DNA of 64,000 nucleotides from a virus: the IMG/VR virus record IMGVR_UViG_3300028027_000001; one strand, written 5' to 3'. The notes under the pieces were generated by a model that was given only the letters and a program-made list of their open reading frames with translations, was not told where the DNA came from and searched no databases. Shown here in pieces: positions 39,631 to 59,079 of this stretch (positions are counted from its first letter, which is position 1; each line of letters begins with the position of its first letter). Both the position numbers and the translations under genes were made by a program.

Positions 39631-39665
39631 GAATATACAAAGAAAGCCTGGCAGAACCAAGCTTT
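39631..39665 (-). repeat. terminator/promoter cassette end, copy 1
   Basis: gaatatacaaagaaagcctggcagaaccaagcttt. Confidence 0.85.
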
Positions 39666-39689
39666 TTAAGTATTTTTGATAGTACTGGG

Positions 39690-39926
39690 TTATTTAATTA
39701 TACCAGCACGTACTTGAAATAGTTTACGCATTTCATCTAATTGTTCGGATTGACCAACAATAGAATCATATGATTCCATACCCAAACATTCACCTTCAGC
39801 GCTTAAACTGATTGCACGTTCAGCGGCATCATGTAAATCCATATCCGTTTTAGCGTCTTCTTTTGCGTATTCTAATAGACGAATGAATAACGGAACGTCT
39901 ACTGTGATTGTATCTTTTGGGTTCAT
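39690..39926 (-). CDS. cassette cargo protein ending FQVRAGIIK
   Basis: ORF track; class C promoter 39938. Confidence 0.8.
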   Translation of the reverse strand: MNPKDTITVDVPLFIRLLEYAKEDAKTDMDLHDAAERAISLSAEGECLGMESYDSIVGQSEQLDEMRKLFQVRAGIIK

Positions 39927-39945
39927 GTATTTTTATGTATAAATA

Positions 39946-40185
39946 TTATGAATTTTGTTCTCGTATGATTTTTTCCATTTTTTCCAGGTATAGAATACCA
40001 TCCATTAATTCTTCACGTAAGTGTTTACAATAATCTAAAAAGTTTAAATCTGTACGTTCTAATCCAACACCATATTTTTCACGGCCGAATTGTGCACGTT
40101 CGATAAATTTATCTATTACTGAATCAACAACATGGTCTGTTGTTGGGATAGTGCGGCTATTTTGTTTTTCTTGGTTTTCTTGCAT
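39946..40185 (-). CDS. small helical protein, possibly MazG-like
   Basis: G-xx-KYG, HLREELMDGILY. Confidence 0.55.
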   Translation of the reverse strand: MQENQEKQNSRTIPTTDHVVDSVIDKFIERAQFGREKYGVGLERTDLNFLDYCKHLREELMDGILYLEKMEKIIREQNS

Positions 40186-40582
40186 TTTTTTCAGGTTTTG
40201 AGTTGTCTATGCCCATTTTTAATAATATTTCGGTTACACCATTTTTACCTAGCAATTCCATATATTCTACAGCATCTCTCAAACTACATTCGTAGTAACG
40301 AGCTATATGTTCTGCTTCGGGAGGTGTTGATGTTTTGGTTTTACCAACCCATTTCAACCATACTTTACGTTTTGGGATTAAATTGCAATACGCAGTGTAA
40401 ATATATTTCTTTTGGTCGTGTGGGATTTTTTGAACGTAATTGGCTAGCTCGATATAGTCTACGTTCATGGATATGAACTTATGGATCATATATGGTTGGA
40501 AGGACCCCCAGTCCCCCTCATCAAATGTGGAGGCTGGTTGTTTCTTCACTGTGATTTGCTCGAGCCAATCGAATAGAGTCAT
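40157..40582 (-). CDS. clamp loader small subunit (T4 gp62-like)
   Basis: F-PYMIHKFISM, IPKRKVWLKW, ARYYECS; adjacent to the AAA+ subunit. Confidence 0.7.
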   Translation of the reverse strand: MTLFDWLEQITVKKQPASTFDEGDWGSFQPYMIHKFISMNVDYIELANYVQKIPHDQKKYIYTAYCNLIPKRKVWLKWVGKTKTSTPPEAEHIARYYECSLRDAVEYMELLGKNGVTEILLKMGIDNSKPEKNARKPRKTK

Positions 40583-40584
40583 GG

Positions 40585-40815
40585 TTACAAGGAATGTTCT
40601 TTATATTCATCACGTAACTCTTTTGGTAAAGAGTCTAAAACGATTTTTTTAGATTCGATATCGTAAAATACACTTATCGGAACCAAACCGTCTTCGTCTG
40701 AACCAAGAATAAATTTGGAAATTTTACGTAAAATGTAACCTTGTTGGAAGATAATACCTCCGTCAAAACCTTCAACTGCTGTTGAATTAGCTAAATCAAT
40801 TTGTGGTTGTTGCAT
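40585..40815 (-). CDS. hypothetical protein
   Basis: ORF track. Confidence 0.8.
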   Translation of the reverse strand: MQQPQIDLANSTAVEGFDGGIIFQQGYILRKISKFILGSDEDGLVPISVFYDIESKKIVLDSLPKELRDEYKEHSL

Positions 40816-40828
40816 TGTTTATTTATTT

Positions 40829-41554
40829 TTATATGGTTTCTAAAATTTTAGCGATTGCAGCAAAGAAACATATTTCTTTATCTATCACGCTCGCACTCTG
40901 GAACATATGATCATTTATTGTGATAATCACGAGTCCTTCATTTCCAGATGCATATTTTTCTACATCTGTGTATAGTTTTTTATATAGACTATCAAAATCA
41001 CTCACATCACTATCCGCTATTAATTTACGGATTTCAGTAAATGTTTTTGAGTGTTTTTTAGATAGTAATTGAATTAAATTATTTTCAGTGTCTGCATCGT
41101 TGGTTAACGTTTGAGACAGCACAAGTTTATCGTCTATAATGTGTTTTTGCACATTGTTGATAATACGACGCAAATCAGGATAGTACGCGTTTATAATCGC
41201 CGCTACGTCGCTGATTTCGTACTGTATATTTTCAGTGTCGAGTATGTTTACTACGTGTTTGGCTACGTGTTTTTTGCTTGGTGGTTTCAAATTGTAGTCC
41301 TCCAAACGCGAACGCAACGGTTCAATTAAGCGTTCTGGGTAATTACCGGTTAATATGAATCGTGTATTTAAACTGTATGTTTCGATCATGTTTAGGAGCA
41401 ATACTTGCCCTGCTTGCAGGATATGGGTGCAATTATGGGTTAATACGTCATTATTCTCACCTATAAAAAAATTATGATTTTTACTAACAGTTAAATCATA
41501 CACCTTTTTTTTTCCTTCAAGTTTTTTTACATTAACTATATTTAATTTTTTCAT
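40829..41554 (-). CDS. split intein C-part (41 aa) fused to clamp loader AAA+ C-extein
   Basis: VYDLTV..HNFF...LTHN/C, then RFILTGNY, PLRSR, PDLRRIIN. Confidence 0.92.
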   Translation of the reverse strand: MKKLNIVNVKKLEGKKKVYDLTVSKNHNFFIGENNDVLTHNCTHILQAGQVLLLNMIETYSLNTRFILTGNYPERLIEPLRSRLEDYNLKPPSKKHVAKHVVNILDTENIQYEISDVAAIINAYYPDLRRIINNVQKHIIDDKLVLSQTLTNDADTENNLIQLLSKKHSKTFTEIRKLIADSDVSDFDSLYKKLYTDVEKYASGNEGLVIITINDHMFQSASVIDKEICFFAAIAKILETI

Positions 41555-42675
41555 AACTTTAAACCTTTAATCATTTTATTATAATATACTAAAAAATTAT
41601 CACTCATACACACTTCTGGGTTTATGAAGTTGATTAAATTGGATTCGTTCACCCATATAAATTTATAATCATTTTCTAAACACCATTTTATAGCTCCATC
41701 CATTTTATCAATTTGAGCAATATATTGACGTTTAGGCTTGAGTTCATATAATATTTTATTTTCCAAATCTATGAAATCAGGAATATATATTTTCCTCTCA
41801 TTTTCTGTAACATATTGAATTCTTATAGACTCATATTCAAGTTTAGGATTTGAAATAAAAAAACACACCTCCCAACTACTTCTAAAGTAATAGGTTTTAT
41901 TATTGAATGGTATATCAATTCTTCTTTTAGTTCTATAATTATTTTGGGGAGAGAAGGTTCCATCCAATATGTTTTTTTTCTGAGAATCGGATGATTTTTT
42001 TCTTCTTATATTTTTTTCTTCTTCTGATATATTAAATAACCATGGGTGATCAATATTTTGGTGGGTTAATTTCATGTTTTCTCTCCAAATAGTATTCCTT
42101 GAGGGGTCATCTTTCATTTCATTCCATTTTTCCATTCTTTTCTCCACCACATCTGGGGATGTTAGTATTTGGGAATGGATTAAATTGTGGTCATTGATAC
42201 TAAGGGATGAAATATATTTATTAAATAATGGGTTACACGGATGAGCAGTTTTAGCATTTTTGGATATTCTAAAATCATTAATGGTCAATGCCTGATTGGA
42301 AAATATACAGGATGGAATTAAAGATGATTTTTTAAATAATTCATATACTATAATACGTCTATCATTCTCATTAAAAAAACACGCTAAATGATTAAATATT
42401 CTAGTATAACCATACCACTTGTTATCTACAGGAGATTTAATATGATTGTTTATGGGGTTTACATCCATCCTATCTAATATATCATTTAATTGATAGTTGG
42501 TGATATAAACATACTTACTATCATATACATATTTGTATTCACTTGGGGTGAGGTATTTTTTTAGATCTGTCAAAAGAAGATTTCTCGATTCAAACTTATT
42601 ACCCGTTATAACATTTACCCACGGATAATGATATGTAATAAAGTTATTTTTTATTTCATCTAGATGTTTCATCAT
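41551..42675 (-). CDS. free-standing endonuclease (TnsA-like PD-(D/E)XK)
   Basis: FRSSWE, YE..RIQY, YIPDF, ELKP. Confidence 0.78.
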   Translation of the reverse strand: MMKHLDEIKNNFITYHYPWVNVITGNKFESRNLLLTDLKKYLTPSEYKYVYDSKYVYITNYQLNDILDRMDVNPINNHIKSPVDNKWYGYTRIFNHLACFFNENDRRIIVYELFKKSSLIPSCIFSNQALTINDFRISKNAKTAHPCNPLFNKYISSLSINDHNLIHSQILTSPDVVEKRMEKWNEMKDDPSRNTIWRENMKLTHQNIDHPWLFNISEEEKNIRRKKSSDSQKKNILDGTFSPQNNYRTKRRIDIPFNNKTYYFRSSWEVCFFISNPKLEYESIRIQYVTENERKIYIPDFIDLENKILYELKPKRQYIAQIDKMDGAIKWCLENDYKFIWVNESNLINFINPEVCMSDNFLVYYNKMIKGLKL

Positions 42676-42738
42676 ATTAATTTTGTTATAAATATATGAT
42701 AACCTTGGAGAGAATGGGAAATGTTGGTTGATTCGATG

Positions 42739-43359
42739 TTATATTGAAAGGACATAACCACATTCTATAACTTCTTTAGTAGTAACAACTATAGGATTGG
42801 AATTTTCATCATTAATATACCATTTATGGGATTCAGTACATACAACTTTTTCTCCATTTTCAAATTCTATTTCATAACAATCTTGTTCCCCCTTATAAAA
42901 TAATTCAAAGGGCATCCACTGTATTTGGGATGTTTCTTCGTTATATGATTTTACTAAGTCGTTTTTTTCATCAAGGAATTTTATTGGGATTTTTACAATC
43001 TCCCCTTTTCTTAAAACAGTCACCAATGTTTGTTCTTCTAAACACTCATCTAATATTACTATTTTAGGTGCCGGTTTAAAAGACATTACCGACACAAAAG
43101 GAAGTATTTCATTCCTGATATCGTCTATACCCCTCTTATCTGTAGCATTGATCATGATATAGTCACAGTCAATGTTACGAGCGATGATTTTGGCTAAGGT
43201 GGTTTTACCGGATCCGGCTTTGCCAAAGAAACCTAACATAGGTATGTTCTGTTGTTCAATCCATCCCTCTACTTTTTGTTTAAGGTAATCATCACACACA
43301 TAGCCCTCAAGTGTTGATGGTCTGTGTTTTTCGTTTAAAACATAATGTCTATCTTGCAT
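42739..43359 (-). CDS. clamp loader AAA+ N-extein (gp44/RFC-like) fused to split intein N-part (101 aa)
   Basis: EKHRP, Walker A GKAGSGKTT, NATD, Walker B IVILDE then CL; block B CTESHKW. Confidence 0.92.
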   Translation of the reverse strand: MQDRHYVLNEKHRPSTLEGYVCDDYLKQKVEGWIEQQNIPMLGFFGKAGSGKTTLAKIIARNIDCDYIMINATDKRGIDDIRNEILPFVSVMSFKPAPKIVILDECLEEQTLVTVLRKGEIVKIPIKFLDEKNDLVKSYNEETSQIQWMPFELFYKGEQDCYEIEFENGEKVVCTESHKWYINDENSNPIVVTTKEVIECGYVLSI

Positions 43360-43377
43360 AACTTATTTTTATAACCG

Positions 43378-43411
43378 GAATATACAAAGAAAGCCTGGCT
43401 AAGCCAAGCTT
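43378..43411 (-). repeat. terminator/promoter cassette end, copy 2
   Basis: gaatatacaaagaaagcctggctaagccaagctt. Confidence 0.85.
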
Positions 43412-43442
43412 CTTTGATTAAATGGGATAGAATATGGGTGGG

Positions 43443-44513
43443 TTAAATTTCTTTCCCTTCATCTTTTAACATTTGTTTGATTTTAGATACACCGGATGAT
43501 ATTCTTTCTGAAAAATTCTGAATAGTTGATAAGTGGGAAGATTGTTTATATTCTTCCTCAGTGATAATACCAGCCAATTTTTGCATGCGCAAGAATTCCT
43601 CGTTTACTGTAGGTGTAGCTTTAAGGGCATACGGAGCAAACAATTTAATCAAATCCAATTTTGCTTGTTGGTTTTTGACTTTATTAATAGTGATTACGTT
43701 GTTTGAATATTCGAAGTTTTTGTCGTATGTATTTTTCAAACGTTGAAGCAAACCATTAATTTCAACACGTTTACCTTTAATTTTAGCTGGGTCTAGGGTT
43801 ACTTTAAATGATACTGTTGCCTCAGAAGGTGCTGCTTTAGTTACACCTGGTGTTTCTGTATCGGTTGGTTCGATTCTTACAACATGATATTTAACTCCAG
43901 CATTATCCATGATAGTTTTAACTACTTTCTCAAGATATGCTTTAGTTGCGAATGGGCTGTCTTTTTGTGGGAATGTGATTTCGTCTCCGTTTACAATGTA
44001 GTGAACGCCTTCCTCCATTTTGCCACTATATTTTTTAAGGTTTGCAGGTGTTTTTAATGGGAAATAGTTTTTTCCAAATTTACCAACAATCATTTTAGGT
44101 AACGCTTTACCTGATAGTGTTTTCAAATATTCCTCAACAGTACCATCATTTCCTTCTGCTTGCCATGCTGCGTATCCTTTTTCCGCTTCTTTCAAACCAG
44201 CTTCGTATTCTTGAGGTTCACGAGCAGCAATATCTGCTAATTTGTTTTCTTTACCTTCATCGTCCAACTCGTCCCAGTGTTTCCATGCGGCTCCTGCTTT
44301 TTGTGCAGGGATTGATGGGCCAAATACTTTCTTGATTGCTTCTGGATCTCTCATGCTTTGGGCATAAGGGCCATAGTTGTCTATATTGTTTAGTGCGTCT
44401 ATGGCTGCTTGAGTTTCAGTTGATTGGATTGTTAAGTCGTAACTGTTACGGCCAAGGCCTTTCATTCCATCTTCTTCTCCATCCATTTCACGGATTATAT
44501 CGAATAATTTCAT
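43443..44513 (-). CDS. cassette cargo protein with RMQKLAGIITE motif (putative virion-internal protein)
   Basis: MKLFDIIRE leader, motif near C-terminus, class C promoter 44533. Confidence 0.8.
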   Translation of the reverse strand: MKLFDIIREMDGEEDGMKGLGRNSYDLTIQSTETQAAIDALNNIDNYGPYAQSMRDPEAIKKVFGPSIPAQKAGAAWKHWDELDDEGKENKLADIAAREPQEYEAGLKEAEKGYAAWQAEGNDGTVEEYLKTLSGKALPKMIVGKFGKNYFPLKTPANLKKYSGKMEEGVHYIVNGDEITFPQKDSPFATKAYLEKVVKTIMDNAGVKYHVVRIEPTDTETPGVTKAAPSEATVSFKVTLDPAKIKGKRVEINGLLQRLKNTYDKNFEYSNNVITINKVKNQQAKLDLIKLFAPYALKATPTVNEEFLRMQKLAGIITEEEYKQSSHLSTIQNFSERISSGVSKIKQMLKDEGKEI

Positions 44514-44558
44514 ATTTGTATGTATGTTTATGTATAAATATACAAAAAGATGACGCTA

Positions 44559-44825
44559 TTAAATAGCGTCACCGTATAAATTGTATCTTTTTACAGGTTC
44601 TGGTTCGATTGCTTTCTCCTCAGTTCTGATAACATATAGTTTACTATCGAGTGGAGCTAAACGAAATTCAACTTGCTCTTGATTTTTGTCGAACCATGCT
44701 TCAAGTGCATCTGTTAGTGATGGATGGACTACTTTTTTAGTATCGCCTACTAGTATCCAGGAATCACCTTTACCCTTTACGCGCGTAGCCAACAATTCAA
44801 GTGTTTCTACTACCTGTGTTTCCAT
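44559..44825 (-). CDS. hypothetical protein
   Basis: ORF track. Confidence 0.8.
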   Translation of the reverse strand: METQVVETLELLATRVKGKGDSWILVGDTKKVVHPSLTDALEAWFDKNQEQVEFRLAPLDSKLYVIRTEEKAIEPEPVKRYNLYGDAI

Positions 44826-44826
44826 A

Positions 44827-46473
44827 TTACATCATCATTTGAGATGGATCGTAAGCACCGTCTTCTTTTTTGTCTTCTGGTTTGTCTACGATAACACACT
44901 CTGTTAATAGAATAGTACTAGCAATACTGGATGCGTTGCTTAGGGCACTGCATGTTACTTTGGTTGGGTCGAGGATACCTGCTTCTTTCATGTTTACGAT
45001 TTCCTCAGTTTTGATGTTAAATCCAAACCATGGGTTTGTTCCTGCATCACCCGCCTTTCCAATTTCTTGGTTAATTGGGTAAATCTCTTCAGCATCGTAT
45101 CCTGCATTGATTAAAATTTGTTCGAATGGTTTACTACATATTTTGTATACTAAACGTTTACCAAAATTAAAATCAGATCCGTCTGCTTTTACCTCAGTAA
45201 TTGCTTCTCTAGCATATAATAATGCAACACCACCACCAGGAACAATACCGTCTTCTAAGGCACATTTAGTTGCATGTAAAGCATCGTCTACACGATCTTT
45301 CTTTTCTTTCATTTCGGTTTCAGTATTTCCACCTACGTGTACTAAAGCAACACCACCAATGAATTTTGCTAAACGTTCTTGCAATTTTTCAGTTTCGAAT
45401 GGAGTGGTTGATTTATCGATTTGTGCTTCTAATTCTTCAACACGTTGAGTGATTTTTTCTTCTGAACCTTGACCATCAACAATTGTGGTTTGTTCTTTGG
45501 TTACAGTGATTGTACGTGCTTTTCCAAACCATTCATCCTGGAATTTGTCCAACTTCATGCCTTTATCTTTGTCGAATACAGTACCTCCAGTTAACACAGC
45601 AATGTCTTCTAAGATTAACTTTCTACGATCACCAAAGTCAGGTGCTTTAACAGCAACTACTTTTAATGTACCACGCATTTTATTTACAATCAATGTTGCC
45701 AATGCTTCCCCATCGATGTCTTCGGCAATGATAAGCAATGATTTTCCAGTACGAGCCACACCATCTAAGATAGGTAGCAATTCTTTCACTTGTGTGAATC
45801 TATGATCAGCAATTAATACCAATGAATCATTTAATACCGCTGACATGTTGTTGTTGTTGGTAACGAAATATGGTGACTTGTATCCACGATCAAATTGCAT
45901 ACCTTCAACTACCTCTAAATATGTTTCACCAGTACGAGATTCCTCAATGTGTACTACACCTTCACGACCTACTTTCTCCATTGCTCTAGCAATTAATTTC
46001 CCAGTTTCTGGGTCATTGTTTGCTGAAATAGAAGCAATTTGTTCAAGTTGTTCTTCAGATGTGATTTTTTCTGATGAATTTTTAAGTGATTCGATTACTT
46101 GCTTAACAGCAGCATCAATACCACGTTTAATTTCAACTGCATTTCCACCTTCATTTAAACGTTGTAAACCTTGTTTAACGATTTCACGAGCCAATAACGT
46201 AGATGTAGTTGTACCATCACCAGCATTGTCTGCTGTTTTGATTGCGGCTTGTTTGATCATTTGCGCACCCAAATTTTCGATTGGGTCTTCCAATTCAGAA
46301 ATATGTTTTGCGATTGATACACCATCTTTTGTAGATACTGCTACACCATCATGAAAATATACTGTATTTCTACCTTGTGGTCCTAAACTGGATACTACGG
46401 CATCTGCCAAAATATCAATCCCGTTTGCTAATTTTTTACGTGCTTCAGCACCTAGTTTAATTTGTTTACTCAT
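44827..46473 (-). CDS. groEL: chaperonin GroEL
   Basis: LGPQGRN, TKDGVS, AGDGTTT, FDRGY, GIVPGGG. Confidence 0.98.
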   Translation of the reverse strand: MSKQIKLGAEARKKLANGIDILADAVVSSLGPQGRNTVYFHDGVAVSTKDGVSIAKHISELEDPIENLGAQMIKQAAIKTADNAGDGTTTSTLLAREIVKQGLQRLNEGGNAVEIKRGIDAAVKQVIESLKNSSEKITSEEQLEQIASISANNDPETGKLIARAMEKVGREGVVHIEESRTGETYLEVVEGMQFDRGYKSPYFVTNNNNMSAVLNDSLVLIADHRFTQVKELLPILDGVARTGKSLLIIAEDIDGEALATLIVNKMRGTLKVVAVKAPDFGDRRKLILEDIAVLTGGTVFDKDKGMKLDKFQDEWFGKARTITVTKEQTTIVDGQGSEEKITQRVEELEAQIDKSTTPFETEKLQERLAKFIGGVALVHVGGNTETEMKEKKDRVDDALHATKCALEDGIVPGGGVALLYAREAITEVKADGSDFNFGKRLVYKICSKPFEQILINAGYDAEEIYPINQEIGKAGDAGTNPWFGFNIKTEEIVNMKEAGILDPTKVTCSALSNASSIASTILLTECVIVDKPEDKKEDGAYDPSQMMM

Positions 46474-46479
46474 ATAACT

Positions 46480-46779
46480 TTATTTAATTTTGGATAAAAC
46501 TGTTTTTTCGTTTCCGATGAAATATTCATCTCCATCATGTTCAATTTTAGTAAATCCTTGTGTTGGTAAAATTACCACATCACCCACTTTCAATACTGTT
46601 TCTACGAATGTTCCTGTTACTGTGTGTGAACCAGGACCAACAGCTACTACTGTTCCTTTTGGATTTCTATCTTTACCAGCATCTGGTACTACGATAGATC
46701 CATACATTGTTTCCTCTGTTTCTAGTGGTTTAACGATAACCGCGTCGAATAGAGGTTCGAAAATTGTTTCGTTACTCAT
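46480..46779 (-). CDS. groES: co-chaperonin GroES
   Basis: PLFDAVIV, GSIVVPD, GTVVAVGPG, LKVGD. Confidence 0.95.
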   Translation of the reverse strand: MSNETIFEPLFDAVIVKPLETEETMYGSIVVPDAGKDRNPKGTVVAVGPGSHTVTGTFVETVLKVGDVVILPTQGFTKIEHDGDEYFIGNEKTVLSKIK

Positions 46780-47144
46780 ATTTCTACTTTATTTAATAAA
46801 TTATTGATTCCGTCTTTTACTGTATTCCATGTATCGATATATTCTTTGATTGAAGAATACTGTCCTTTATTTACATAGAATTTTTGTTTTGCAATTGAAT
46901 TAAGGGCATTTTTAAAATTACTATAGTAACCAATTACGTTTTCTGTTTCTTTACCTGAAGCTTCTGCTCCTCTAAATCCACGTTTAGCTGTAGTTCTTTC
47001 AATTACTGTGAAATTAGAATTGTCTTTTGAAATGTAAAATGGTTCCATTACAGGATCTGTAATGATACATACGTTTGATTGAGCATCTACATTGTTTGCA
47101 TCGCGAGCCGGACGACCCTTGCGTTTAGTTGTTGTTTCTACCAT
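46776..47144 (-). CDS. hypothetical protein with AT-hook-like KRKGRP
   Basis: ORF track, promoter 47167. Confidence 0.75.
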   Translation of the reverse strand: MVETTTKRKGRPARDANNVDAQSNVCIITDPVMEPFYISKDNSNFTVIERTTAKRGFRGAEASGKETENVIGYYSNFKNALNSIAKQKFYVNKGQYSSIKEYIDTWNTVKDGINNLLNKVEI

Positions 47145-47215
47145 AACTTTATTTTAATTTATAACTAAATATACGAAAACTTATTGGCTAAGCCAAATAT
47201 TTTTGATTATACATA

Positions 47216-47950
47216 TCAGAAGGTTGTTTGTTCTTTACGAATTAAGTAATATTCACTACTAGTATCCGATGTTTTAAATTCAAGTTTCATCAAACCACGG
47301 TAACTTAATGATAATTTACCTTCTTCCATATCTTTATTAGCATTCAATATGTTACGGAATGCATCTGAATTGAATGGGATGGAGGATGGGGATGGGGTTA
47401 AATTTGAATAGATCTGATATGTGATTTTGTTGTTATGTCCGTTTTCATCTCCAAAGGTAAATAAGATAATATCCTCATCATTTAAATCTTTACCAGTAGA
47501 TATCAACATGTTATTAACATCACCTAAAGCACCTTTTGCTTTGACTAAATTCACAATATCTTCCTTTTCTAGAATAGACACCGCATCCCATTGTGGAGCA
47601 GTTACAGAACCTACTTTACCCATTAGTAGCGGATCTGCCAATGCATATGTTAAATTGAATGCATTGTCAGCAATGTGTAATTTAGTATACACTGATTGTT
47701 TTTTCTCCAGGGTAAATATTAAATCACCAGCACATATATTTAGTAAACCCAGTAATTTTTTAGTATCATATATTGCCAAATCACTATCTTCTATGTCAAT
47801 ATTGTTGTGTGTAATTTTACCAATAACTTCCTTACTTAACGACATAAAATCAATAGTAAGTTGTTTGTTGCGTGTAACCCATTTAACGGATTCAATTTCA
47901 CCTAAGTGATATTTGTCTATAATTGACTTAAGTACTAATCTGTTGATCAT
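47216..47950 (-). CDS. DNA sliding clamp (gp45/PCNA-like)
   Basis: Size 244 aa, AIYD..KLL.LL, C-terminal GLMKLEF..YYL; sits between PolB and the clamp loader. Confidence 0.7.
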   Translation of the reverse strand: MINRLVLKSIIDKYHLGEIESVKWVTRNKQLTIDFMSLSKEVIGKITHNNIDIEDSDLAIYDTKKLLGLLNICAGDLIFTLEKKQSVYTKLHIADNAFNLTYALADPLLMGKVGSVTAPQWDAVSILEKEDIVNLVKAKGALGDVNNMLISTGKDLNDEDIILFTFGDENGHNNKITYQIYSNLTPSPSSIPFNSDAFRNILNANKDMEEGKLSLSYRGLMKLEFKTSDTSSEYYLIRKEQTTF

Positions 47951-47968
47951 ATAACTTTAATTTATGTT

Positions 47969-48003
47969 GAATATACAAAGAAAGCCTGGCAGAGCCAAGC
48001 TTT
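47969..48003 (-). repeat. terminator/promoter cassette end, copy 3
   Basis: gaatatacaaagaaagcctggcagagccaagcttt. Confidence 0.85.
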
Positions 48004-48011
48004 TCTATATT

Positions 48012-48281
48012 TTAAAATGTTTGATTAATGCGCTCAACACCAAGAGGTCTTAATTTATCCATGATTTCATTATTTTCCCTCTCTGCATCCTTCATTTGGC
48101 CATAGTTATCAATGTACATATAGAATGCATCATATCTACTTGCCAAATCCATTATTTCATCGGTTAATTCATATCCATCTTTCATTACAATTTCTTGCCC
48201 TTCTTTAACCAATTGGGCTTTGTATTGACTTTCAGTAATTAAACCAGCCAACATTTGCATCCTAAGTGTTTCTTTGTTCAT
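48012..48281 (-). CDS. cassette cargo protein MNKETLRMQMLAGLITE
   Basis: ORF track; class C promoter 48328. Confidence 0.8.
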   Translation of the reverse strand: MNKETLRMQMLAGLITESQYKAQLVKEGQEIVMKDGYELTDEIMDLASRYDAFYMYIDNYGQMKDAERENNEIMDKLRPLGVERINQTF

Positions 48282-48290
48282 AATATATTT

Positions 48291-48326
48291 GTTTATGTTT
48301 ATGCTTATGTTTATGTTTATGTTTAT
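48291..48326. repeat. hexamer microsatellite (GTTTAT)x6 in the 5-prime UTR
   Basis: gtttat gtttat gcttat gtttat gtttat gtttat. Confidence 0.8.
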
Positions 48327-48365
48327 GTATAAATATATGGATTTAAATTTAGGATGTCAAGTATC

Positions 48366-49268
48366 CTAGTCAAAGCTGAAGAAATCATCGATAAATGCAT
48401 TCAATTTGAGGTCCCAACCAATATCTGAGTATAAGGTTTGGAGTTTGTTTCGCATAATTGAATCAAATAGGCCCTCACGGTCAATATATTTGTTTATGAT
48501 TTCAATAATTTCTGGGGGATCGTTATAGCCATTAAATCCAATTACATCTATTTTATACGGGTTTGGTTTAAGCTGTGCATAATACATTTTATCACCCAAG
48601 GAAAACTCAGGGTATTTTGCTGATTGTTTCTTAAATCGGATAAAGTCGTTATATAATGATGCTGCTCTTGTATTAACGGGGCATTTTTTCTTGAGGGTGG
48701 AAAATAATTCACCAGGCATTGGTGGGCGCTCAATATACTCCCCTAGTTTTTTAAGTCCGGTTGGTTTGAGTAGATGCTTCCAATCTATGGTGTTTAACGA
48801 CGCTTTGAATTCGAGTACATCTTTGTCTATATCTTCTTTCGATTTACCAAACAATATATCCTTGATTACCTTCTCTCCAAAGTTACGGAATATAGGGGGA
48901 AAGTTTGATTTTATCAAATCTAACCCTTTAGTATCTAATTCTTCAACTTTTACACCTTCTTTATCTATAATGTACTGGGCGTATCTTCGTTTACCTGACC
49001 AGTATACTCTTTTTATTATGTATTCAGGTTTAAGGTCTAGGTAATGTTCCTTTGAGTTAAAGCATCTAGATGCTATGTTGTTTTGGAAATCATTTAATTT
49101 ATCACCTATTGATAGTTGGAGTTTCTTTACCTCTTCAATAATGATTTCATCTGGGGTATTATCATAGTCGGGAAGTCTGTGTCTCAGTATTGATTCTAAT
49201 CCAATAATAAGGGAATCGGTGTCACTACCTCTAACATGGGTATTAATTTCTTCTACATTAAACTGCAT
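48366..49268 (-). CDS. family B DNA polymerase, C-terminal piece
   Basis: Motif C SDTDS, KRRYA, TKGLD..KS. Confidence 0.92.
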   Translation of the reverse strand: MQFNVEEINTHVRGSDTDSLIIGLESILRHRLPDYDNTPDEIIIEEVKKLQLSIGDKLNDFQNNIASRCFNSKEHYLDLKPEYIIKRVYWSGKRRYAQYIIDKEGVKVEELDTKGLDLIKSNFPPIFRNFGEKVIKDILFGKSKEDIDKDVLEFKASLNTIDWKHLLKPTGLKKLGEYIERPPMPGELFSTLKKKCPVNTRAASLYNDFIRFKKQSAKYPEFSLGDKMYYAQLKPNPYKIDVIGFNGYNDPPEIIEIINKYIDREGLFDSIMRNKLQTLYSDIGWDLKLNAFIDDFFSFD

Positions 49269-50179
49269 GGGATTATTTTTTCTAGTATATAATTTATATC
49301 ATTAAATTGCATATATGATATTCTAATCAAATTTATTTTATTTAACTCACAATATTTATTCTTAACTTGATCTAAATATTTTGCTTTTTCAAATGACTTT
49401 TTCCCTCCAAAAAATTTAACAGGTTTATAATGCAATTCCCCATCAAATTCTATACATAAGTTCAAATGAGGGATATAAAAATCAAATCTCAAAACTGCAT
49501 TAGTTTCAGGATTTCTACAATCATCAAATGTCTTTTGGGCAATATACGAAATATTTTTTGTTTTTAAAAATAATTCTATAGATTCCTCTCCTTTACTCCA
49601 ACTACACCTAGGACATCGTTGCCCTTGTAGGTGGTTTGAAAGTTGTTGATTAAACCATCCGTGTTGGGGGCATTTTATTTTAAATTTATTATCAAAATAC
49701 CCAACATAAGAATCCCAATCGTATTCATATCCTAAATTTAAATCGTTAACTCTTGATTTTAAATCATCTAAAGGTATTGGTTTTCTATGGTTTTTACATT
49801 TAGGGCATCTCTGTTTCCCATGAACGTGATTTGTCCACAACATTTCAAACAGTCCATGTTCCTTGCATATTATAGAAACCTTATCCATTGTCTGAAAATC
49901 TGATGTTATTAAAGAATAATCATACAGCCCATCATGGATGTGATTGGCTGTTCTAATTTTATCTTCATATGTGTGGTTTTTTCCAACACATTTTGGGCAT
50001 TTAGATTTTTTTGCAATATGGTTGTCTAAAGATACTTCCCACACCCCGTGGATTGAGCATATTATTGGGTATTTTTCCATAACCCCCCTATATTCTTTTA
50101 TTAGGGAATAATCATATTTATCCCCATGCACATTTTTTGATTTTTGAATAGCTTCTTCTAATGTTAATCGTTTTCCCAT
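49253..50179 (-). CDS. free-standing endonuclease (CxxHG/CPxC repeats plus Vsr/DUF559-like domain)
   Basis: Three C-xx-HG..H....CPxC repeats; SKGE, FDFYIP, IEFDGELH. Confidence 0.82.
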   Translation of the reverse strand: MGKRLTLEEAIQKSKNVHGDKYDYSLIKEYRGVMEKYPIICSIHGVWEVSLDNHIAKKSKCPKCVGKNHTYEDKIRTANHIHDGLYDYSLITSDFQTMDKVSIICKEHGLFEMLWTNHVHGKQRCPKCKNHRKPIPLDDLKSRVNDLNLGYEYDWDSYVGYFDNKFKIKCPQHGWFNQQLSNHLQGQRCPRCSWSKGEESIELFLKTKNISYIAQKTFDDCRNPETNAVLRFDFYIPHLNLCIEFDGELHYKPVKFFGGKKSFEKAKYLDQVKNKYCELNKINLIRISYMQFNDINYILEKIIPCSLM

Positions 50180-50220
50180 GTGTGGCGTTTTAATGTCTTG
50201 TACGGTTATACATATTAACA

Positions 50221-52068
50221 TTATTTGTTAAGATATTCACTTTCAATTAATTTATTAGCATAACGAATAGTTTCTTGTATACTTCTTTGTCCGAATGTGG
50301 TAATAGCGGATGAACACATTTTGTATCCGTCTGTGTATCGCCATGAATTAATTGCGAAACAACCATAAACACTGTTCAATAGGATTTTTATGGAATGTTG
50401 TTTTTGATTATATAATTTCCCTTTATCTACATCCCCCGAGTTATATGCATCTTTCATTATTTTTTTATATTCTTGTCTAAGCCTAAACCAATCGGATAAT
50501 AATTCAGAGACAATACTGGTTTTACTAGTATCAAACATAACACCATTAGCTGAAATTGTCCAGTTATTTTTTTCAATCAGTGCTAACAGGTCTTTTACTG
50601 TTATTTTACCTTGCTTTAACTTATATGACCTTCTATCTAATTTTTCTACTGTTAATATTTTGTCTGGGTCTTCTTCTTTAAGTTCTTCAAAACTGCACCA
50701 ACAATTATAATTAGGGTTTGGTACTACGATTCTTCCCTTCATGGTTTCAACACCTAAATTTAATGATCTAATAATAGATGGGTATAGGGAAGCATAGTCG
50801 GCATTAATTAACCAACTGTGAAGCCCAACCATTGGGGGGAGTAAATAACCACCAGCATATCCGTCTTTTCTTTTAACAGTTCGAAGATTTCTTTGTATAA
50901 AAGAACCTGATATTGTTTTAACTATAATATTGTTTCCTTCAATACTATGGATATGACCTTCGATTGTTGGAGTACCACGTTGATGAACTACCAAATCACC
51001 TACTTCTATCTCACGTATGCTGGGATTAGTGGTGGTTGGTTTATTTGGGGAGATTATACCCTTTCTCTTTAAGTAAGTCAAAATGGCTCCTTCATTTAAA
51101 ATTGTATTATAATATATAGATTCATAAGGCGTATGACATAAATGTGAAATCAATATGGTTAACTCGATAAATTTCAGTTTATCCTCTAACGCTTCCAATA
51201 TTTCAACATCTCGAATGTTGTAATCTATATATTTGTTTGGATCTTCTCTGAACAATGTGTCAAGATTACCATCATATTCAATTTTACCTAGTTTGGCATA
51301 TTTGATGCCAATATCCCCCAGTTTATACGACGGTTCTTCCTTCATGATGTACTTCTTAAGCAACAACATAAAGTCCAAACAGTTAACTAAACCAATACGA
51401 ATTGGGGAATTGGGGTTATTTATGTTTTCATCGATTTTACCAATTGGAGATAAACGATATACTTCATCACCTAAACGTTTTTTAATACGATAATACAAAT
51501 AGGGCATATCGAAGAAATCACTGTTGAAACCAACACAAATAGTCGGATCCATCTGTTCCCACTTGCTTAAGAATTTACGTAACAACGTGTTTTCATCTAC
51601 ACATGGGAGTATTGATTTACCGTCTGCTGATATTTCTTCAATTTGATTTTGTTTATCTAAAATGAAACATATCTTTTCCTTAGTAGTAGCATCAATTAAA
51701 GCAATAGCGGTTACTTCAGCATTTGCTTCCCTAATAGTGGTTGGATTTAGTGGCCCAATAATTTCAATCTCAATATCCAGGTATACTAGGTTGTGATATG
51801 AGGGCATGTCATCTGTTTCGTAGTATAAATCACGTAACAAAACCAGTTCCTTATCTATATCGCGCTCCAATATTTTAGGGTCTTTCCAATCATACTTTCC
51901 GTATACTGGGGAGCACTTGTCACCAAATAAAGTGGTGTGTTCTCCATATTCATCTAGTCTATAGACTGTTGGTCTGTATTGGAATTTGGAAATGCCAGAT
52001 TTGTCGTCACGTAAGAAATAATGATACGCGTCTTCTCCGTTACGTGAATAGTATACACTTTGAAACAT
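50221..52068 (-). CDS. family B DNA polymerase, N-terminal piece (exonuclease, motifs A and B)
   Basis: DIE, FNSDFFD, YNIRD, DYASLYPSII, KILLNSVYG. Confidence 0.95.
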   Translation of the reverse strand: MFQSVYYSRNGEDAYHYFLRDDKSGISKFQYRPTVYRLDEYGEHTTLFGDKCSPVYGKYDWKDPKILERDIDKELVLLRDLYYETDDMPSYHNLVYLDIEIEIIGPLNPTTIREANAEVTAIALIDATTKEKICFILDKQNQIEEISADGKSILPCVDENTLLRKFLSKWEQMDPTICVGFNSDFFDMPYLYYRIKKRLGDEVYRLSPIGKIDENINNPNSPIRIGLVNCLDFMLLLKKYIMKEEPSYKLGDIGIKYAKLGKIEYDGNLDTLFREDPNKYIDYNIRDVEILEALEDKLKFIELTILISHLCHTPYESIYYNTILNEGAILTYLKRKGIISPNKPTTTNPSIREIEVGDLVVHQRGTPTIEGHIHSIEGNNIIVKTISGSFIQRNLRTVKRKDGYAGGYLLPPMVGLHSWLINADYASLYPSIIRSLNLGVETMKGRIVVPNPNYNCWCSFEELKEEDPDKILTVEKLDRRSYKLKQGKITVKDLLALIEKNNWTISANGVMFDTSKTSIVSELLSDWFRLRQEYKKIMKDAYNSGDVDKGKLYNQKQHSIKILLNSVYGCFAINSWRYTDGYKMCSSAITTFGQRSIQETIRYANKLIESEYLNK

Positions 52069-52089
52069 AAACTTTATTTTTAATTATTG

Positions 52090-52124
52090 GAATATACAAA
52101 GAAAGCCTGGCGGAGCCAAGCTTT
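52090..52124 (-). repeat. terminator/promoter cassette end, copy 4
   Basis: gaatatacaaagaaagcctggcggagccaagcttt. Confidence 0.85.
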
Positions 52125-52153
52125 CAATAACACAGCAGTAAGAGTTTTACTGG

Positions 52154-52507
52154 TTAAAATAAATGGTCTGGGGAACCAAATGTTATTTGCATTTCCCCAA
52201 TTTTTACATCCATTAATCCAGATTTTACTCCATCCTCAGGATATTCATTTACTAGGTCATCGATTGAAAATGAAGCGTGGATAGTGCCTTCTCCTCCAGT
52301 TGAAGTTGCAACTTCCTTAGAAGTTTGCTCAAATGGAAAAAAAGTACTGTAGTCTACTCCAAAATGTTTGCTTTTTAATTCCATTTTTTCTAAAAATTCA
52401 TCTTTATTTGAATTTAGGTAATTAGCTACATTTCCAATCCTTTCAGCATATTGAGCTTCAGTAATGATACCAGCTAACATTTGCATTCTTAATGATTCTT
52501 TATTCAT
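52154..52507 (-). CDS. cassette cargo protein MNKESLRMQMLAGIITE
   Basis: ORF track; class C promoter 52525. Confidence 0.8.
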   Translation of the reverse strand: MNKESLRMQMLAGIITEAQYAERIGNVANYLNSNKDEFLEKMELKSKHFGVDYSTFFPFEQTSKEVATSTGGEGTIHASFSIDDLVNEYPEDGVKSGLMDVKIGEMQITFGSPDHLF

Positions 52508-52534
52508 ATTTATTTACTTTTATGTATAAATATA

Positions 52535-53328: not shown

Positions 53329-54039
53329 TTATTTAAATTTGATCATTTCAATTACTTCTTGTTTTGCTGTTTTTTCATGATTAGCAAACACCCCAGATAC
53401 TTCAGATGTAACCATAGATGCACCTTGATGTTTCACCCCTCTACAACTTACACAAGAGTGAGCAGAATCAATCATTACCATCACACCAATATTACCTACA
53501 CAAATTTTAGAGATGGCATTATGTATAGCTACAGTTAATTGTTCTTGGATGGCTCCACGACGGCCAAAATGTTCTACAATGCGATTAAGTTTAGACAAAC
53601 CTACAACGTGTCCGTCTTTCCCAGGAATATATGCTATATGTACGTTTCCTCGAATGGTTTGGTGGTGGTGGGAACACTGGCTGGTTAAGGGGATGTTTTT
53701 TTCTAATACGATTCCATTATATCCGTCGGATGGGAACGAAGTAACGTCTGACATTAATTCGTATCGGCCTTTCCATAAGTCATTTACATAAGCTTTAGCT
53801 ACACGACGTGGGGTATTGTCTGAATTTGGGTCGTCTTGCCACTTACACCCAAGGGCTGTTAAAAACTCCCCATATTTTAATGCCGCGGCATCAATAATTT
53901 GGGATTTTTCTTCATCATTTAATGAACGGTGTTCACCTTTAGCGATTAATTCAGCTAAATAAGTGGAAATACCATTAGCATGTCCTGCTGTTGCAATTTC
54001 GAGTTCCTCTACTTTTACTTTCTTTTCGTTTCTACTCAT
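53329..54039 (-). CDS. folE: GTP cyclohydrolase I
   Basis: TPRRVAK, CSHH, GLSKLNR, QEQLT, HSCVSCRG. Confidence 0.96.
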   Translation of the reverse strand: MSRNEKKVKVEELEIATAGHANGISTYLAELIAKGEHRSLNDEEKSQIIDAAALKYGEFLTALGCKWQDDPNSDNTPRRVAKAYVNDLWKGRYELMSDVTSFPSDGYNGIVLEKNIPLTSQCSHHHQTIRGNVHIAYIPGKDGHVVGLSKLNRIVEHFGRRGAIQEQLTVAIHNAISKICVGNIGVMVMIDSAHSCVSCRGVKHQGASMVTSEVSGVFANHEKTAKQEVIEMIKFK

Positions 54040-54091
54040 ATGTGTTTTTGTTTTTTATGTGAATATACAAATTTGGATTGTTATATCCAAA

Positions 54092-54595
54092 TTAAATTTT
54101 ATAAATTGCGTCTAAATTTCGACAATAACCACCATTATTGTCCATACCATAACCATACACCCATTCTTTATTTACTTCAATCCCATAAATAAATGGACAA
54201 GTTGGTCGTTTACAACGATATCTTTTAAGTAAAGTAACGGCCGTTAACGACGCAGGGTTATGCGATTTTAAGTGAGAATGAACCGCGTTCATAGTATTAC
54301 CCGAGTCAAAGAAGTCATCAACTATATACACATGTTTCCCAGTTAAATCTAACTCGATATCCTTGATTATTTGTAGCTCGGATTGTTCCTGCCCACTATA
54401 TGACTTTACTCGCATAAAATCACATTGGATATTTAAGTCGATTTCGCGTACTAGGTCAGCGAAAAACATAAATCCACCATTTAACAGGCCTACCATCACC
54501 ACATTGTTTAAATCAGGTTGGTGTTTTTTGGTGATAGCATTTCCCATTCTGCGAACGTGGTTTCTTATTACGGTTTTGGATATTATTTGTGACAT
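54092..54595 (-). CDS. hpt: hypoxanthine/guanine phosphoribosyltransferase-like protein
   Basis: LNGGFMFFADL, SY, VYIVDDFFDSGNT, VYGYGMD. Confidence 0.88.
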   Translation of the reverse strand: MSQIISKTVIRNHVRRMGNAITKKHQPDLNNVVMVGLLNGGFMFFADLVREIDLNIQCDFMRVKSYSGQEQSELQIIKDIELDLTGKHVYIVDDFFDSGNTMNAVHSHLKSHNPASLTAVTLLKRYRCKRPTCPFIYGIEVNKEWVYGYGMDNNGGYCRNLDAIYKI

Positions 54596-54616
54596 GGTTG
54601 TGTGTATTTAGTTAAA

Positions 54617-55453: not shown

Positions 55454-55507
55454 ATAACTTATTTTTGGTTAAAGATACAAATGGCTCCTTTTGGAGCCAA
55501 ATGTTTT

Positions 55508-55750
55508 TTAAGATAACATACTCCTCAATTGCCCCTCAGTTAATACACCTGATTTTTTATCAATTGCTCTACCATTTTCTAATACTACTACAGTAGGTAC
55601 TGAGCGGATACCATATTCCGCCACGGTTTGTGGGTCTTGGTCTACGTCTATGAATTTTACTGGGTGGTATTGACTTATAGCATCAATAGTGGGTCTGAAT
55701 GATTTGCATGGGTTGCAAAATGTTCCGTAAAAGTAGATTAGTTGTTTCAT
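55508..55750 (-). CDS. thioredoxin
   Basis: CNPC, IRSVPT. Confidence 0.88.
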   Translation of the reverse strand: MKQLIYFYGTFCNPCKSFRPTIDAISQYHPVKFIDVDQDPQTVAEYGIRSVPTVVVLENGRAIDKKSGVLTEGQLRSMLS

Positions 55751-55840
55751 TTGATTATGTATTTTACAATAAGTGGGTGATGAAATTCGGGATCCCATGA
55801 GGTGGTATACGTCCAAACTGGGTGGATGTTACCATATTGG

Positions 55841-56336: not shown

Positions 56337-56337
56337 A

Positions 56338-57003: not shown

Positions 57004-57209
57004 ATAACCTTTATTTTTAATCATGTTGGAATATACGAATTAGCATTTGATTAAACAAGTTCTTCTGCAATTCCTATTATTTCAGATACTACCAAAGCAG
57101 ATACTGCTAAAGGAATGTTTACTAATAAAAGCAAATATCCTACAATGCGTACTCCGGATTTTACGAAGCTAACTAGTTGATGTAATTTTGGATCTGGTTG
57201 TTTCATTGT

Positions 57210-57752: not shown

Positions 57753-57754
57753 GG

Positions 57755-58670: not shown

Positions 58671-58922
58671 TTATTTTATTTTGTTTTCAAATATTTGATT
58701 AAATGTGTTTTCTAAATCATCTAATATTCCATCTAAATAATCGAATAAATAATCTTCTTGTTCAATATCCAAAGTACCATCCAATACATCAATGAAAGGA
58801 ATCTCAACATTACTATAGAACATTTTAACTAGATCTGGCTCATTGGATTGGATGTATAATAAGGCATTGTCTAATCTTTTACCCAAATATACTAAATCAC
58901 TTACTTCTTCTTCGTAACTCAT
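58671..58922 (-). CDS. acidic hypothetical protein
   Basis: ORF track. Confidence 0.7.
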   Translation of the reverse strand: MSYEEEVSDLVYLGKRLDNALLYIQSNEPDLVKMFYSNVEIPFIDVLDGTLDIEQEDYLFDYLDGILDDLENTFNQIFENKIK

Positions 58923-59079
58923 CTGTTAATGTTTTAATTCCATCTCCCAATTTCTCTACTTTTAATTTAAATTCGGGATCTATACCGTCATTTTGCTCAC
59001 TAATCCCTGCTAATTTTTGCATGCGTCTTCTTTCTTCGTATGCTTTAACAATAGTTTCACATCTGTTTTCTTTTTTCAT
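58897..59079 (-). CDS. small protein with RMQKLAGISE motif
   Basis: ORF track. Confidence 0.7.
   Translation of the reverse strand: MKKENRCETIVKAYEERRRMQKLAGISEQNDGIDPEFKLKVEKLGDGIKTLTDELRRRSK

What the first reader, a model, noticed from the sequence alone, without database searches (positions are those of the whole stretch)
39631..52533. Four plug-in gene cassettes with shared ends and a common RMQxLAGII-type peptide inserted in the replication operon
Seen: units 39631-39946, 43378-44541, 47969-48336 and 52090-52533 all start (minus strand) with the identical 15-mer ATATTTATACATAAA. Each carries one otherwise unrelated ORF (78, 356, 89, 117 aa). Each ends with a near-identical 35-mer A(A)AGCTTGG-N6-CCAGGCTTTCTTTGTATATTC, a terminator-like hairpin fused to a fresh class B promoter. 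The cargo share a motif: LRMQMLAGLITE, LRMQMLAGIITE, LRMQKLAGIITE, FQVRAGIIK. A fifth copy, RMQKLAGISE, is at 58897-59079. The motif can be N-terminal, C-terminal or internal. Inference: a non-polar, exchangeable cassette that is expressed late, stops its own transcript and restarts the interrupted operon. The peptide may be a capsid-loading tag, since I-x-E resembles T4 prohead-protease sites. It is reminiscent of T4-type promoter/stem-loop shuffling cassettes but is tied to a protein tag.
Basis: partly seen in the sequence, partly recalled or inferred. Interest (0 to 1): 0.85.

Follow-up and report, generated by a model that had tools for sequence, protein, structure and literature searches.

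The report
Portable scaffold-derived tag on swappable phage genes
In this uncultured T4-like phage, small late genes that come and go between replication genes all carry one short peptide that also ends the head scaffold protein and abuts a head-protease cut site, so they are probably cargo loaded into the capsid, though no virion data exist.

Summary
The 15-mer occurs four times exactly, and the hairpin plus CTTTGTATATTC occurs four times (spacer N5, not N6), with a fifth, degenerate copy at 26754-26786. The RMQxLAG peptide is real.

The window is the replication and nucleotide-metabolism region of a distant T4-like phage. Its nearest isolate is Flavobacterium phage vB_FspM_immuto.

- **15-mer:** a local variant of the clade's late-promoter box, which precedes sheath, fibre, adaptor and baseplate genes in a complete relative.
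- **Hairpin-promoter:** a PeSL-like terminator/promoter unit. At the polymerase site it stays behind when the cargo is absent.
- **Mobility:** cargo genes are present, absent or swapped across 80 related contigs and in ~99%-identical lake strains.
- **Tag distribution:** the tag heads at least 1,394 protein clusters with mostly unrelated bodies.
- **New links to the head:** the same motif ends the scaffold-position protein in 13 of 13 relatives, and in the immuto, Mel-JY01 and RM378 phages. A T4-protease-type [LI]-x-E site sits on the cargo side of the tag in 67 of 69 N-terminal or internal tags and 28 of 30 C-terminal tags.

Best reading: late moron-like cassettes encoding capsid-targeted, protease-released proteins. 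This is a new variant of the T4 capsid-targeting system and is unproven at the bench. The scan noted T4-type tags in other phages before, but not this one.

The parts
52519..52533 (-). Late-promoter-like 15-mer upstream of cargo 4. It is also the exact 5' edge of the indel seen in natural strains.
52154..52507 (-). Cargo 4: 117 aa with the N-terminal tag MNKESLRMQMLAGIITE followed by a unique body.
   Evidence: orthologue in L002, different cargo in L004, absent in L005 and in X2/X3 contigs
52090..52125 (-). PeSL-like hairpin (11 bp) plus TTGGCT-17-TATATT promoter of the polymerase gene. It is retained in empty alleles.
48322..48336 (-). Late-promoter-like 15-mer of cargo 3, followed by CATAAA tandem repeats in the leader (48282-48321).
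48012..48281 (-). Cargo 3: 89 aa with the N-terminal tag MNKETLRMQMLAGLITE.
   Evidence: site empty in L002, L004 and L005
47969..48003 (-). Hairpin plus gp45 promoter. The hairpin is absent from empty alleles of this site; the promoter is present.
44527..44541 (-). Late-promoter-like 15-mer of cargo 2, fused to the T-run of the hairpin at 44549-44573.
43443..44513 (-). Cargo 2: 356 aa. It is a conserved family with a C-terminal tag. Here the tag is at residues 308-319, followed by a 37-aa extension that is an indel polymorphism.
43378..43412 (-). Hairpin plus promoter of the clamp-loader gene gp44.
39932..39946 (-). Late-promoter-like 15-mer of cargo 1.
39690..39926 (-). Cargo 1: 78 aa with a degenerate C-terminal tag (LDE-MRKLFQVRAGIIK).
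39631..39665 (-). Hairpin plus promoter of the PD-(D/E)XK exonuclease gene.
58897..59079 (-). 60-aa protein with the tag at residues 19-27 (RMQKLAGISE). It has no 15-mer and no hairpin.
   Evidence: orthologues at other positions in L005, L046 and L047
26754..26786 (-). Fifth copy of the hairpin-promoter unit (2 mismatches), upstream of the 26082-26738 gene and without tagged cargo.

Best explanation
The four units are late-expressed accessory gene cassettes. Each is a late-promoter box plus one ORF, usually followed by a terminator hairpin. They sit in intergenic gaps of the replication module of a distant T4-like phage that probably infects Flavobacteriia. They lie next to PeSL-like terminator/promoter repeats that belong to the core genes.

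Cassettes are gained, lost and swapped, most likely by homologous recombination. The likely homology arms are the shared 5' end (promoter plus about 70 nt of tag-coding DNA) and the hairpin repeats.

The shared peptide (core RMQxLAG[IL]) is a capsid-targeting propeptide. It copies the C-terminal peptide of the phage's own prohead scaffold protein and so docks the cargo in the prohead. The gp21-type prohead protease then cuts at the [LI]-x-E site that always lies between tag and cargo (ITE|G/S in N-terminal tags). This frees the cargo inside the head for delivery with the DNA.

Shown by sequence: the repeats, the mobility, purifying selection on the peptide, the scaffold link and the placement of the cut-site motif. 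Inferred: late timing, docking, cleavage and injection.
For: **Mobility**
- Gene maps of 80 related contigs show tagged genes present, absent or replaced at five or more intergenic sites in a conserved backbone.
- The DNA alignment shows a shared 5' end, an unrelated middle and a shared 3' end. L005 is empty.
- Contigs from two other lake or aquatic samples join 52123 to 52534 with 20 other letters, with flanks about 99% identical.

**Unit structure**
- 58% of N-tagged genes have the late box within 45 nt upstream, against 10% of other genes.
- 54% have a hairpin plus T-run downstream, against 6% of other genes.

**Late class**
- In the complete relative G001 the same box precedes tail sheath, tail fibre, head-tail adaptor and baseplate hub genes.
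- In the window it precedes a Hoc-like gene.

**The peptide is under protein-level selection**
- 36 distinct coding versions were found among 40 tags.
- Differing codon pairs are 3297 synonymous against 468 nonsynonymous.

**Breadth**
- 1,394 cluster representatives match at E<=1e-3.
- 145 of 148 top hits are N-terminal, followed by ITEG or ITES.
- Bodies fall into 44 of 81 clusters and 81 of 112 clusters.
- 111 of 114 have no Pfam domain.

**Scaffold link**
- The ORF between the gp21-like protease and the gp23-like capsid protein ends in the motif in 13 of 13 relatives.
- The same holds in Flavobacterium phage immuto, Microcystis phage Mel-JY01 and Rhodothermus phage RM378.

**Cut site**
- [LI]-x-E follows the Gly in 67 of 69 N-terminal or internal tags (background 2.9%).
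- It precedes 28 of 30 C-terminal tags within 12 residues (background 15%).
- T4 gp21 cuts after L/I-x-E (PMC9026906).
- T4's own gp23, gp21 and gp22 read FLTE-A, EITES and TITES.
Against: - No virion proteome, cleavage data or transcript map exists for any member.
- The window holds no head genes, so the scaffold link rests on relatives with 57-70% identity in core proteins.
- The scaffold-position protein has no sequence match to T4 gp22 (E 0.15) or to any family. Its role rests on gene order and composition.
- The C-terminal-tag count is dominated by two gene families, so its independence is low.
- More distant relatives with the scaffold motif show no tagged cargo.
- The tag weakly resembles the SHOCT domain, whose function is unknown.
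- Cargo 1 and cargo 2 are stable residents, not mobile.
Confidence: 0.6

Rival explanations
1. The tag is a SHOCT-like two-helix module. It lets many small phage proteins oligomerise or bind some common cytoplasmic partner that has nothing to do with the capsid. Its presence at the scaffold end reflects only a general helix-helix contact.
For: - SHOCT (PF09851) is the commonest Pfam hit: 16 of 49 tag segments, best E 0.013, and P0002 residues 314-324.
- The AlphaFold model of cargo 2 shows helix, Gly turn, helix at the tag.
- SHOCT is described as two amphipathic helices with a conserved Gly and Glu, found at either terminus of many architectures (PMC3581485).
Against: - All hits are far below Pfam's cut-off: 12-14 bits against 27.
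- The part shared by the scaffold and the C-terminal tags is only the first helix plus AG[IL]; the second helix is missing.
- This reading does not explain why an [LI]-x-E site always lies on the cargo side of the tag.
- It also does not explain why tagged genes carry late promoters.
- The SHOCT paper's own test did not support oligomerisation (PMC3581485).
Confidence: 0.2
2. The conserved 5' coding stretch is mainly a DNA homology arm for cassette shuffling, like PeSLs. The peptide has no function of its own.
For: - The shared 5' end (promoter plus about 70 nt) and the 3' hairpin bracket unrelated middles.
- The four window cassettes share a promoter sub-variant (C at position 10) that other late boxes in the window lack.
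- PeSL recombination is documented in T4-type phages (PMC2839356, PMC4122927).
Against: - Tag codons differ mostly at synonymous sites (3297 against 468), using different Leu and Arg codon families. Mean nucleotide identity is only 82%.
- The motif also occurs at C-termini and in the scaffold, where it cannot serve as a 5' arm.
Confidence: 0.07
3. The repeats are ordinary regulatory signals (late promoter, terminator, core-gene promoter). The tagged ORFs are one paralogous family with a conserved N-terminal functional domain, with no cassette behaviour.
For: - The late box and TTTGTATATTC occur at many other genes.
- Cargo 1 and cargo 2 are syntenic in most relatives.
Against: - Presence, absence and replacement occur at identical junctions, including in ~99%-identical strains.
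- The bodies are unrelated: 44 clusters among 81 proteins after masking the tag.
Confidence: 0.08

Closest known systems
Capsid targeting sequence (CTS) of phage T4 internal proteins IPI, IPII, IPIII and Alt, removed by the gp21 prohead protease
   Same: - A short terminal leader is shared by otherwise unrelated, fast-evolving small proteins.
- The leader ends in L/I-x-E, the gp21 cut motif.
- A gp21-type protease is encoded by relatives.
- The T4 literature describes T-even internal proteins as a diverse set with only the CTS conserved (PMC3012670), and describes both N- and C-terminal propeptides (PMC9026906).
   Different: - There is no sequence likeness to MKTYQEFIAE.
- The tag is longer: 17 aa plus a second helix.
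- It matches the C-terminus of the scaffold-position protein.
- It also works as a C-terminal tag with the cut site upstream.
- The genes are scattered as single late cassettes in the replication module.
- The scale is at least 1,394 clusters.
- Packaging has not been tested.
PeSLs (promoter-early stem-loops) of T4-type phages (Arbiol et al. 2010, PMC2839356; Comeau et al. 2014, PMC4122927)
   Same: - The unit combines a stem-loop terminator with a sigma-70-like promoter (TTGGCT-17-TATATT, with the -35 inside the stem).
- It is repeated nearly identically.
- It flanks orphan genes that are inserted, deleted or replaced between relatives.
   Different: - The units here are shorter (about 35-45 nt conserved).
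- They stand in front of core replication genes rather than in hyperplastic regions.
- The cassette's other end is a late promoter plus a protein-tag coding stretch, not a second PeSL.
- Promoter and terminator activity is untested.
Morons of lambdoid phages (promoter-gene-terminator units between two genes)
   Same: Each is a self-contained transcription unit, with its own promoter, one ORF and a hairpin terminator, inserted between two functional genes.
   Different: Here the units share conserved ends and a protein tag, and they are driven by a phage late promoter.
Scaffold C-terminal coat-binding peptides and their mimics (P22 gp8 helix-turn-helix; SaPI1 CpmB copying the 80alpha scaffold C-terminus) and encapsulin cargo-loading peptides. 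This comparison is recalled knowledge and was not tested here.
   Same: A short terminal peptide docks a protein to the inside of an HK97-fold shell. Unrelated proteins gain entry by carrying the same peptide.
   Different: There is no sequence relation, and binding to the capsid protein is not shown here.
SHOCT domain (Pfam PF09851)
   Same: About 25-30 aa, two helices around a conserved Gly, G-[IV]-I-T-E-x-[EQ]-[YF], found at either terminus of diverse proteins.
   Different: All hits are below the family threshold. The C-terminal and scaffold copies lack the second helix.

Membership tests
T4-type CTS / internal proteins | A short terminal leader is shared by otherwise unrelated proteins. 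| tested here: met
   After masking the tag, 81 tagged proteins fall into 44 clusters and 112 representatives into 81 clusters.
T4-type CTS / internal proteins | The leader is bounded by the prohead-protease motif L/I-x-E. | tested here: met
   67 of 69 N-terminal or internal tags and 28 of 30 C-terminal tags have it. The motif definition is from PMC9026906.
T4-type CTS / internal proteins | The phage encodes a gp21-type (Peptidase_S77) prohead protease. | tested here: met
   PF03420 hits relative G001 at 2.3e-28, and phrog_207 matches. The window itself holds no head genes.
T4-type CTS / internal proteins | Sequence likeness to the T4 CTS (MKTYQEFIAE). | tested here: not met
   The tag consensus is MxKExLRMQMLAGIITE, which has no likeness to the T4 leader.
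T4-type CTS / internal proteins | The protein is present in virions with the leader removed. | not testable with these tools
   This needs virion mass spectrometry.
PeSL | A composite of a sigma-70-like promoter and a stem-loop terminator. | tested here: met
   The scan finds TTGGCT-17-TATATT at 52119, 47998 and 43407, with 10-11 bp stems. Folding energy is -15 to -18 kcal/mol, z -3.3 to -4.6.
PeSL | It flanks orphan genes that are indel-polymorphic between close relatives. | tested here: met
PeSL | Demonstrated early-promoter and terminator activity. | not testable with these tools
   This needs reporter assays or transcript mapping.
SHOCT (PF09851) | The score reaches Pfam's gathering cut-off (27 bits). 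| tested here: not met
   The best score is 14.2 bits. 16 of 49 segments hit only at E>=0.013.
T4 gp22 prohead scaffold | Sequence homology to gp22. | tested here: not met
   BLASTP against T4 gp22 gives E 0.15. There is no PHROG or Pfam hit.
T4 gp22 prohead scaffold | The gene lies between the prohead protease and the major capsid protein, and encodes an acidic helical protein. | tested here: met

The most novel reading that the evidence does not exclude
A previously undescribed capsid-loading and release signal has been copied from the C-terminal docking peptide of the head scaffold. It marks more than a thousand families of proteins that Flavobacterium-type T4-like phages pack into the head and inject. 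Single late gene cassettes carrying it are traded between genomes, giving a mobile, addressable effector arsenal.
Probability: 0.5. Interest if true: 0.8.

Novelty: new variant of a known kind. Interest (0 to 1): 0.7.

Why it matters
If the tag is a capsid address, three things follow.

- **A catalogue of candidate injected proteins.** A simple sequence rule (RMQxLAG + [LI]-x-E) would pick out the probable injected proteins, likely host-takeover and anti-defence factors, of a very abundant freshwater and Baltic phage clade. Almost all of them have no known domain.
- **A route by which phages recruit cargo.** It would show that a phage can recruit cargo by copying the end of its own scaffold.
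- **A practical handle.** It would offer a way to load foreign proteins into Flavobacterium phage heads, as the CTS does in T4.

The idea is directly testable because a cultured phage-host pair (vB_FspM_immuto on Flavobacterium sp. LMO8) carries the scaffold motif and two tagged genes.

Tried and rejected
- **Megablast** of the region against isolated phages found no match.
- **Pfam and PHROGs** on the five window cargo proteins, on ten long tagged relatives and on 114 representatives gave essentially nothing.
- **PDB sequence search** with the tag profile gave chance-level hits only.
- **Complex prediction** of the capsid protein with the tag peptide gave no verdict. This is not evidence either way.
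- **AlphaFold2 of cargo 2** gave mean pLDDT 69 and pTM 0.35. Foldseek against PDB found no match at E<=0.001, and the ESM Atlas gave no usable hit.
- **Sequencing runs:** no RNA holder is listed, so transcript starts could not be examined.
- **Tag profile in more distant genomes:**
  - Mel-JY01 and RM378: nothing found.
  - Partial genomes G004 and G005: only the scaffold copy found.
- **N6 spacing** of the 3' repeat gave no match; the spacer is N5.
- **Reverse complement of the 15-mer:** it contains TATAAATA, so I considered a divergent late promoter. I set this aside because the forward box precedes structural genes in the coding direction.
- **Clamp-binding (PIP-like) motif:** I considered this and rejected it. 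The polymerase's own C-terminal tail (KFFNFS-type, seen) is unlike the tag.
Full report
**1. The observation**

The 15-mer ATATTTATACATAAA occurs four times without mismatch, all on the minus strand, at 39946, 44541, 48336 and 52533. The 3' element is AGCTTGG-N5-CCAGGCTTTCTTTGTATATTC (N5, not N6). It occurs four times exactly and a fifth time with two mismatches at 26754-26786. ORFs of 78, 356, 89 and 117 aa lie between the ends. I built a profile from the tag. It scores cargo 2, 3 and 4 at E 1e-13 to 1e-15, and the 58897-59079 ORF at 8e-4. Cargo 1 is a degenerate C-terminal copy, as its orthologues show.

**2. Context**

All genes run on the minus strand. The flanking genes, in order, are:
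- a MazG-like pyrophosphatase
- family-B DNA polymerase, split by an HNH endonuclease gene
- sliding clamp gp45
- GroES and GroEL
- clamp loader gp44, broken by intein-like halves and an endonuclease
- gp62
- a PD-(D/E)XK exonuclease

Further out lie 7-deazaguanine synthesis genes, glycosyltransferases, thymidylate synthase and a Hoc-like gene. The polymerase is at most 30% identical to any isolated phage. The capsid protein of relatives is 57% identical to Flavobacterium phage vB_FspM_immuto. The clade is very abundant in lake and Baltic metagenomes.

**3. What the DNA ends are**

*The 5' end.* The 15-mer is a local variant of a box ATAT(T/G)TATAA(A/T)AAA.
- In the window this box also precedes the Hoc-like gene and several endonuclease genes.
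- In the complete relative G001 it precedes the tail sheath, a tail fibre, the head-tail adaptor and a baseplate hub.
- Many copies contain T4's TATAAATA.

I therefore read it as the clade's late promoter, by inference. The four window cassettes share a sub-variant (C at position 10) that the other late boxes lack. This suggests a common origin of their 5' ends.

*The 3' end.*
- The hairpins have 10-11 bp stems and folding energies of -15 to -18 kcal/mol, followed by a T-run.
- The stem holds a TTGGCT that sits 17 nt before TATATT.
- TTTGTATATTC alone precedes other core genes.

This is the architecture of the PeSLs of T4-type phages: a terminator stem-loop fused to a sigma-70-like promoter (PMC2839356, PMC4122927).

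**4. Are they cassettes?**

Yes, with a correction.
- Across 80 related contigs the backbone is conserved. Tagged genes appear, vanish or are replaced at five or more gaps: before pol, pol/gp45, gp45/next gene, around cargo 2, and g79/exonuclease. One genome has up to three in tandem.
- At the pol site, the window and L002 share the cargo, L004 has an unrelated body behind the same tag, and L005 has nothing.
- Contigs from two other samples, about 99% identical in the flank, join 52123 to 52534 with 20 other letters. The indel runs exactly from the first base of the 15-mer to just before the hairpin, and the hairpin-promoter stays.
- At pol/gp45 the empty alleles keep the promoter but lack the hairpin, in two lineages.

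So the mobile unit is late box plus ORF, with or without the hairpin. The downstream promoter belongs to the core gene.

Statistically, 58% of N-tagged genes have the late box within 45 nt upstream, against 10% of other genes. 54% have a hairpin plus T-run downstream, against 6%. Cargo 1 and cargo 2 are resident in most relatives. The 37-aa tail of cargo 2 beyond ITE is itself an indel: a variant in the source sample, like L004, stops right after ITE.

**5. The peptide**

The consensus is MxKExLRMQMLAGIITE(G/S)QYKxKLNE.
- Among 40 tags there are 36 coding versions. Differing codon pairs are 3297 synonymous against 468 nonsynonymous, so the peptide itself is selected.
- A profile search of 1.84 billion representatives gives 1,394 hits at E<=1e-3 and 464 at E<=1e-10.
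- 145 of the 148 top hits that match the motif pattern are N-terminal, followed by ITEG or ITES.
- The bodies are mostly unrelated and without Pfam domains.

**6. The link to the head**

In G001 the ORF between the gp21-type protease and the gp23-type capsid protein ends in FLRMQKLAGII. That position is the canonical scaffold position, and the protein is acidic and helical.
- All 13 homologues found end the same way.
- So do the corresponding proteins of the cultured Flavobacterium phage immuto (SRWQKLAGIIK), Microcystis phage Mel-JY01 (ERMKKLAGIVK) and Rhodothermus phage RM378 (ERIKRLAGL).
- The distant genomes have the scaffold copy but no tagged cargo. This suggests that cargo proteins borrowed the scaffold's end.
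- Immuto itself has two N-tagged genes.

**7. The cut site**

T4 gp21 cuts after L/I-x-E (PMC9026906). T4's own gp23, gp21 and gp22 read FLTE-A, EITES and TITES.
- [LI]-x-E follows the Gly in 67 of 69 N-terminal or internal tags, with x varying (T, S, N, Q, D, K). The background rate is 2.9%.
- In C-terminal tags (scaffold, cargo 2 family, cargo 1 family) it lies just upstream in 28 of 30, against a 15% background.

The site is therefore always between tag and cargo. A removable address would need exactly this arrangement.

**8. Verdict**

The best reading is late, moron-like cassettes encoding capsid-targeted, protease-released proteins. They are traded by recombination at shared ends next to PeSL-like units.

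This is a new variant of the T4 CTS/internal-protein system (PMC3012670, PMC9026906), joined to PeSL-type shuffling. It is unproven at the bench.

SHOCT likeness is real but sub-threshold. It does not explain the cut sites or the scaffold copies.

The complex prediction gave no verdict, and no RNA data were available.

Earlier notes of this scan describe T4-type tags in other giant phages that also echo scaffold repeats. That is a parallel, not evidence for this case.

Noticed in passing
window 40829-43359 (minus strand): The clamp-loader gene gp44 is in three ORFs. The first is the N-part plus an intein N-terminal splicing region, the second is an endonuclease gene with its own late box at 42687, and the third is an intein C-terminal region plus the C-part. 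Contigs in three or four samples join 41425 to 43049 with 10 other letters, so an uninterrupted allele exists. Relatives have one ORF of about 305 aa.
   Followed up: partly
window 48366-52068: The family-B DNA polymerase is split by a free-standing HNH endonuclease gene (49253-50221). Relatives L004 and L005 have a single 908-aa ORF.
   Followed up: partly
window 48282-48321: The leader of cargo 3 holds about seven tandem CATAAA units that extend the 3' part of the late box. Read mapping flagged this stretch as a repeat.
   Followed up: no
window 43443-43556: The last 37 residues of cargo 2, after ITE, are an indel polymorphism. A variant contig in the probable source sample, and relative L004, stop right after ITE. 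The tag therefore sits at a module junction.
   Followed up: partly
window 53329-58669: GTP cyclohydrolase, QueE-like and QueC-like genes suggest 7-deazaguanine DNA modification. The related immuto phage appears in a paper on such modifications (PMC10516641; I did not read it in detail).
   Followed up: no
window 44827-46779: The phage encodes GroEL (548 aa) and GroES (99 aa) in the middle of the replication module.
   Followed up: no
window 10509-11261, 34241-35158, 36390-37046; many positions in L010-L074: Several homing-endonuclease families occupy the same kind of intergenic gaps as the tagged genes in relatives. They are also preceded by late-type boxes.
   Followed up: no
L116 4725-5966 (NC_055915 125626-126867): The scaffold-position protein of Flavobacterium phage immuto is annotated 'DNA polymerase phi-like protein'. 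This is probably a low-complexity artefact of its acidic region.
   Followed up: partly
window 58671-59079; L046 19626-; L005 3789-: The small tagged gene at 58897-59079 and its overlapping neighbour (58671-58922) move together to another site (between g79 and cargo 1) in L046.
   Followed up: no
window 55508-55798: A 96-aa protein ends in SGVLTEGQLRSMLS. This gives a weak hit (E 0.15) to the second half of the tag profile, and a similar tail occurs in G001 at 118601-118867.
   Followed up: no
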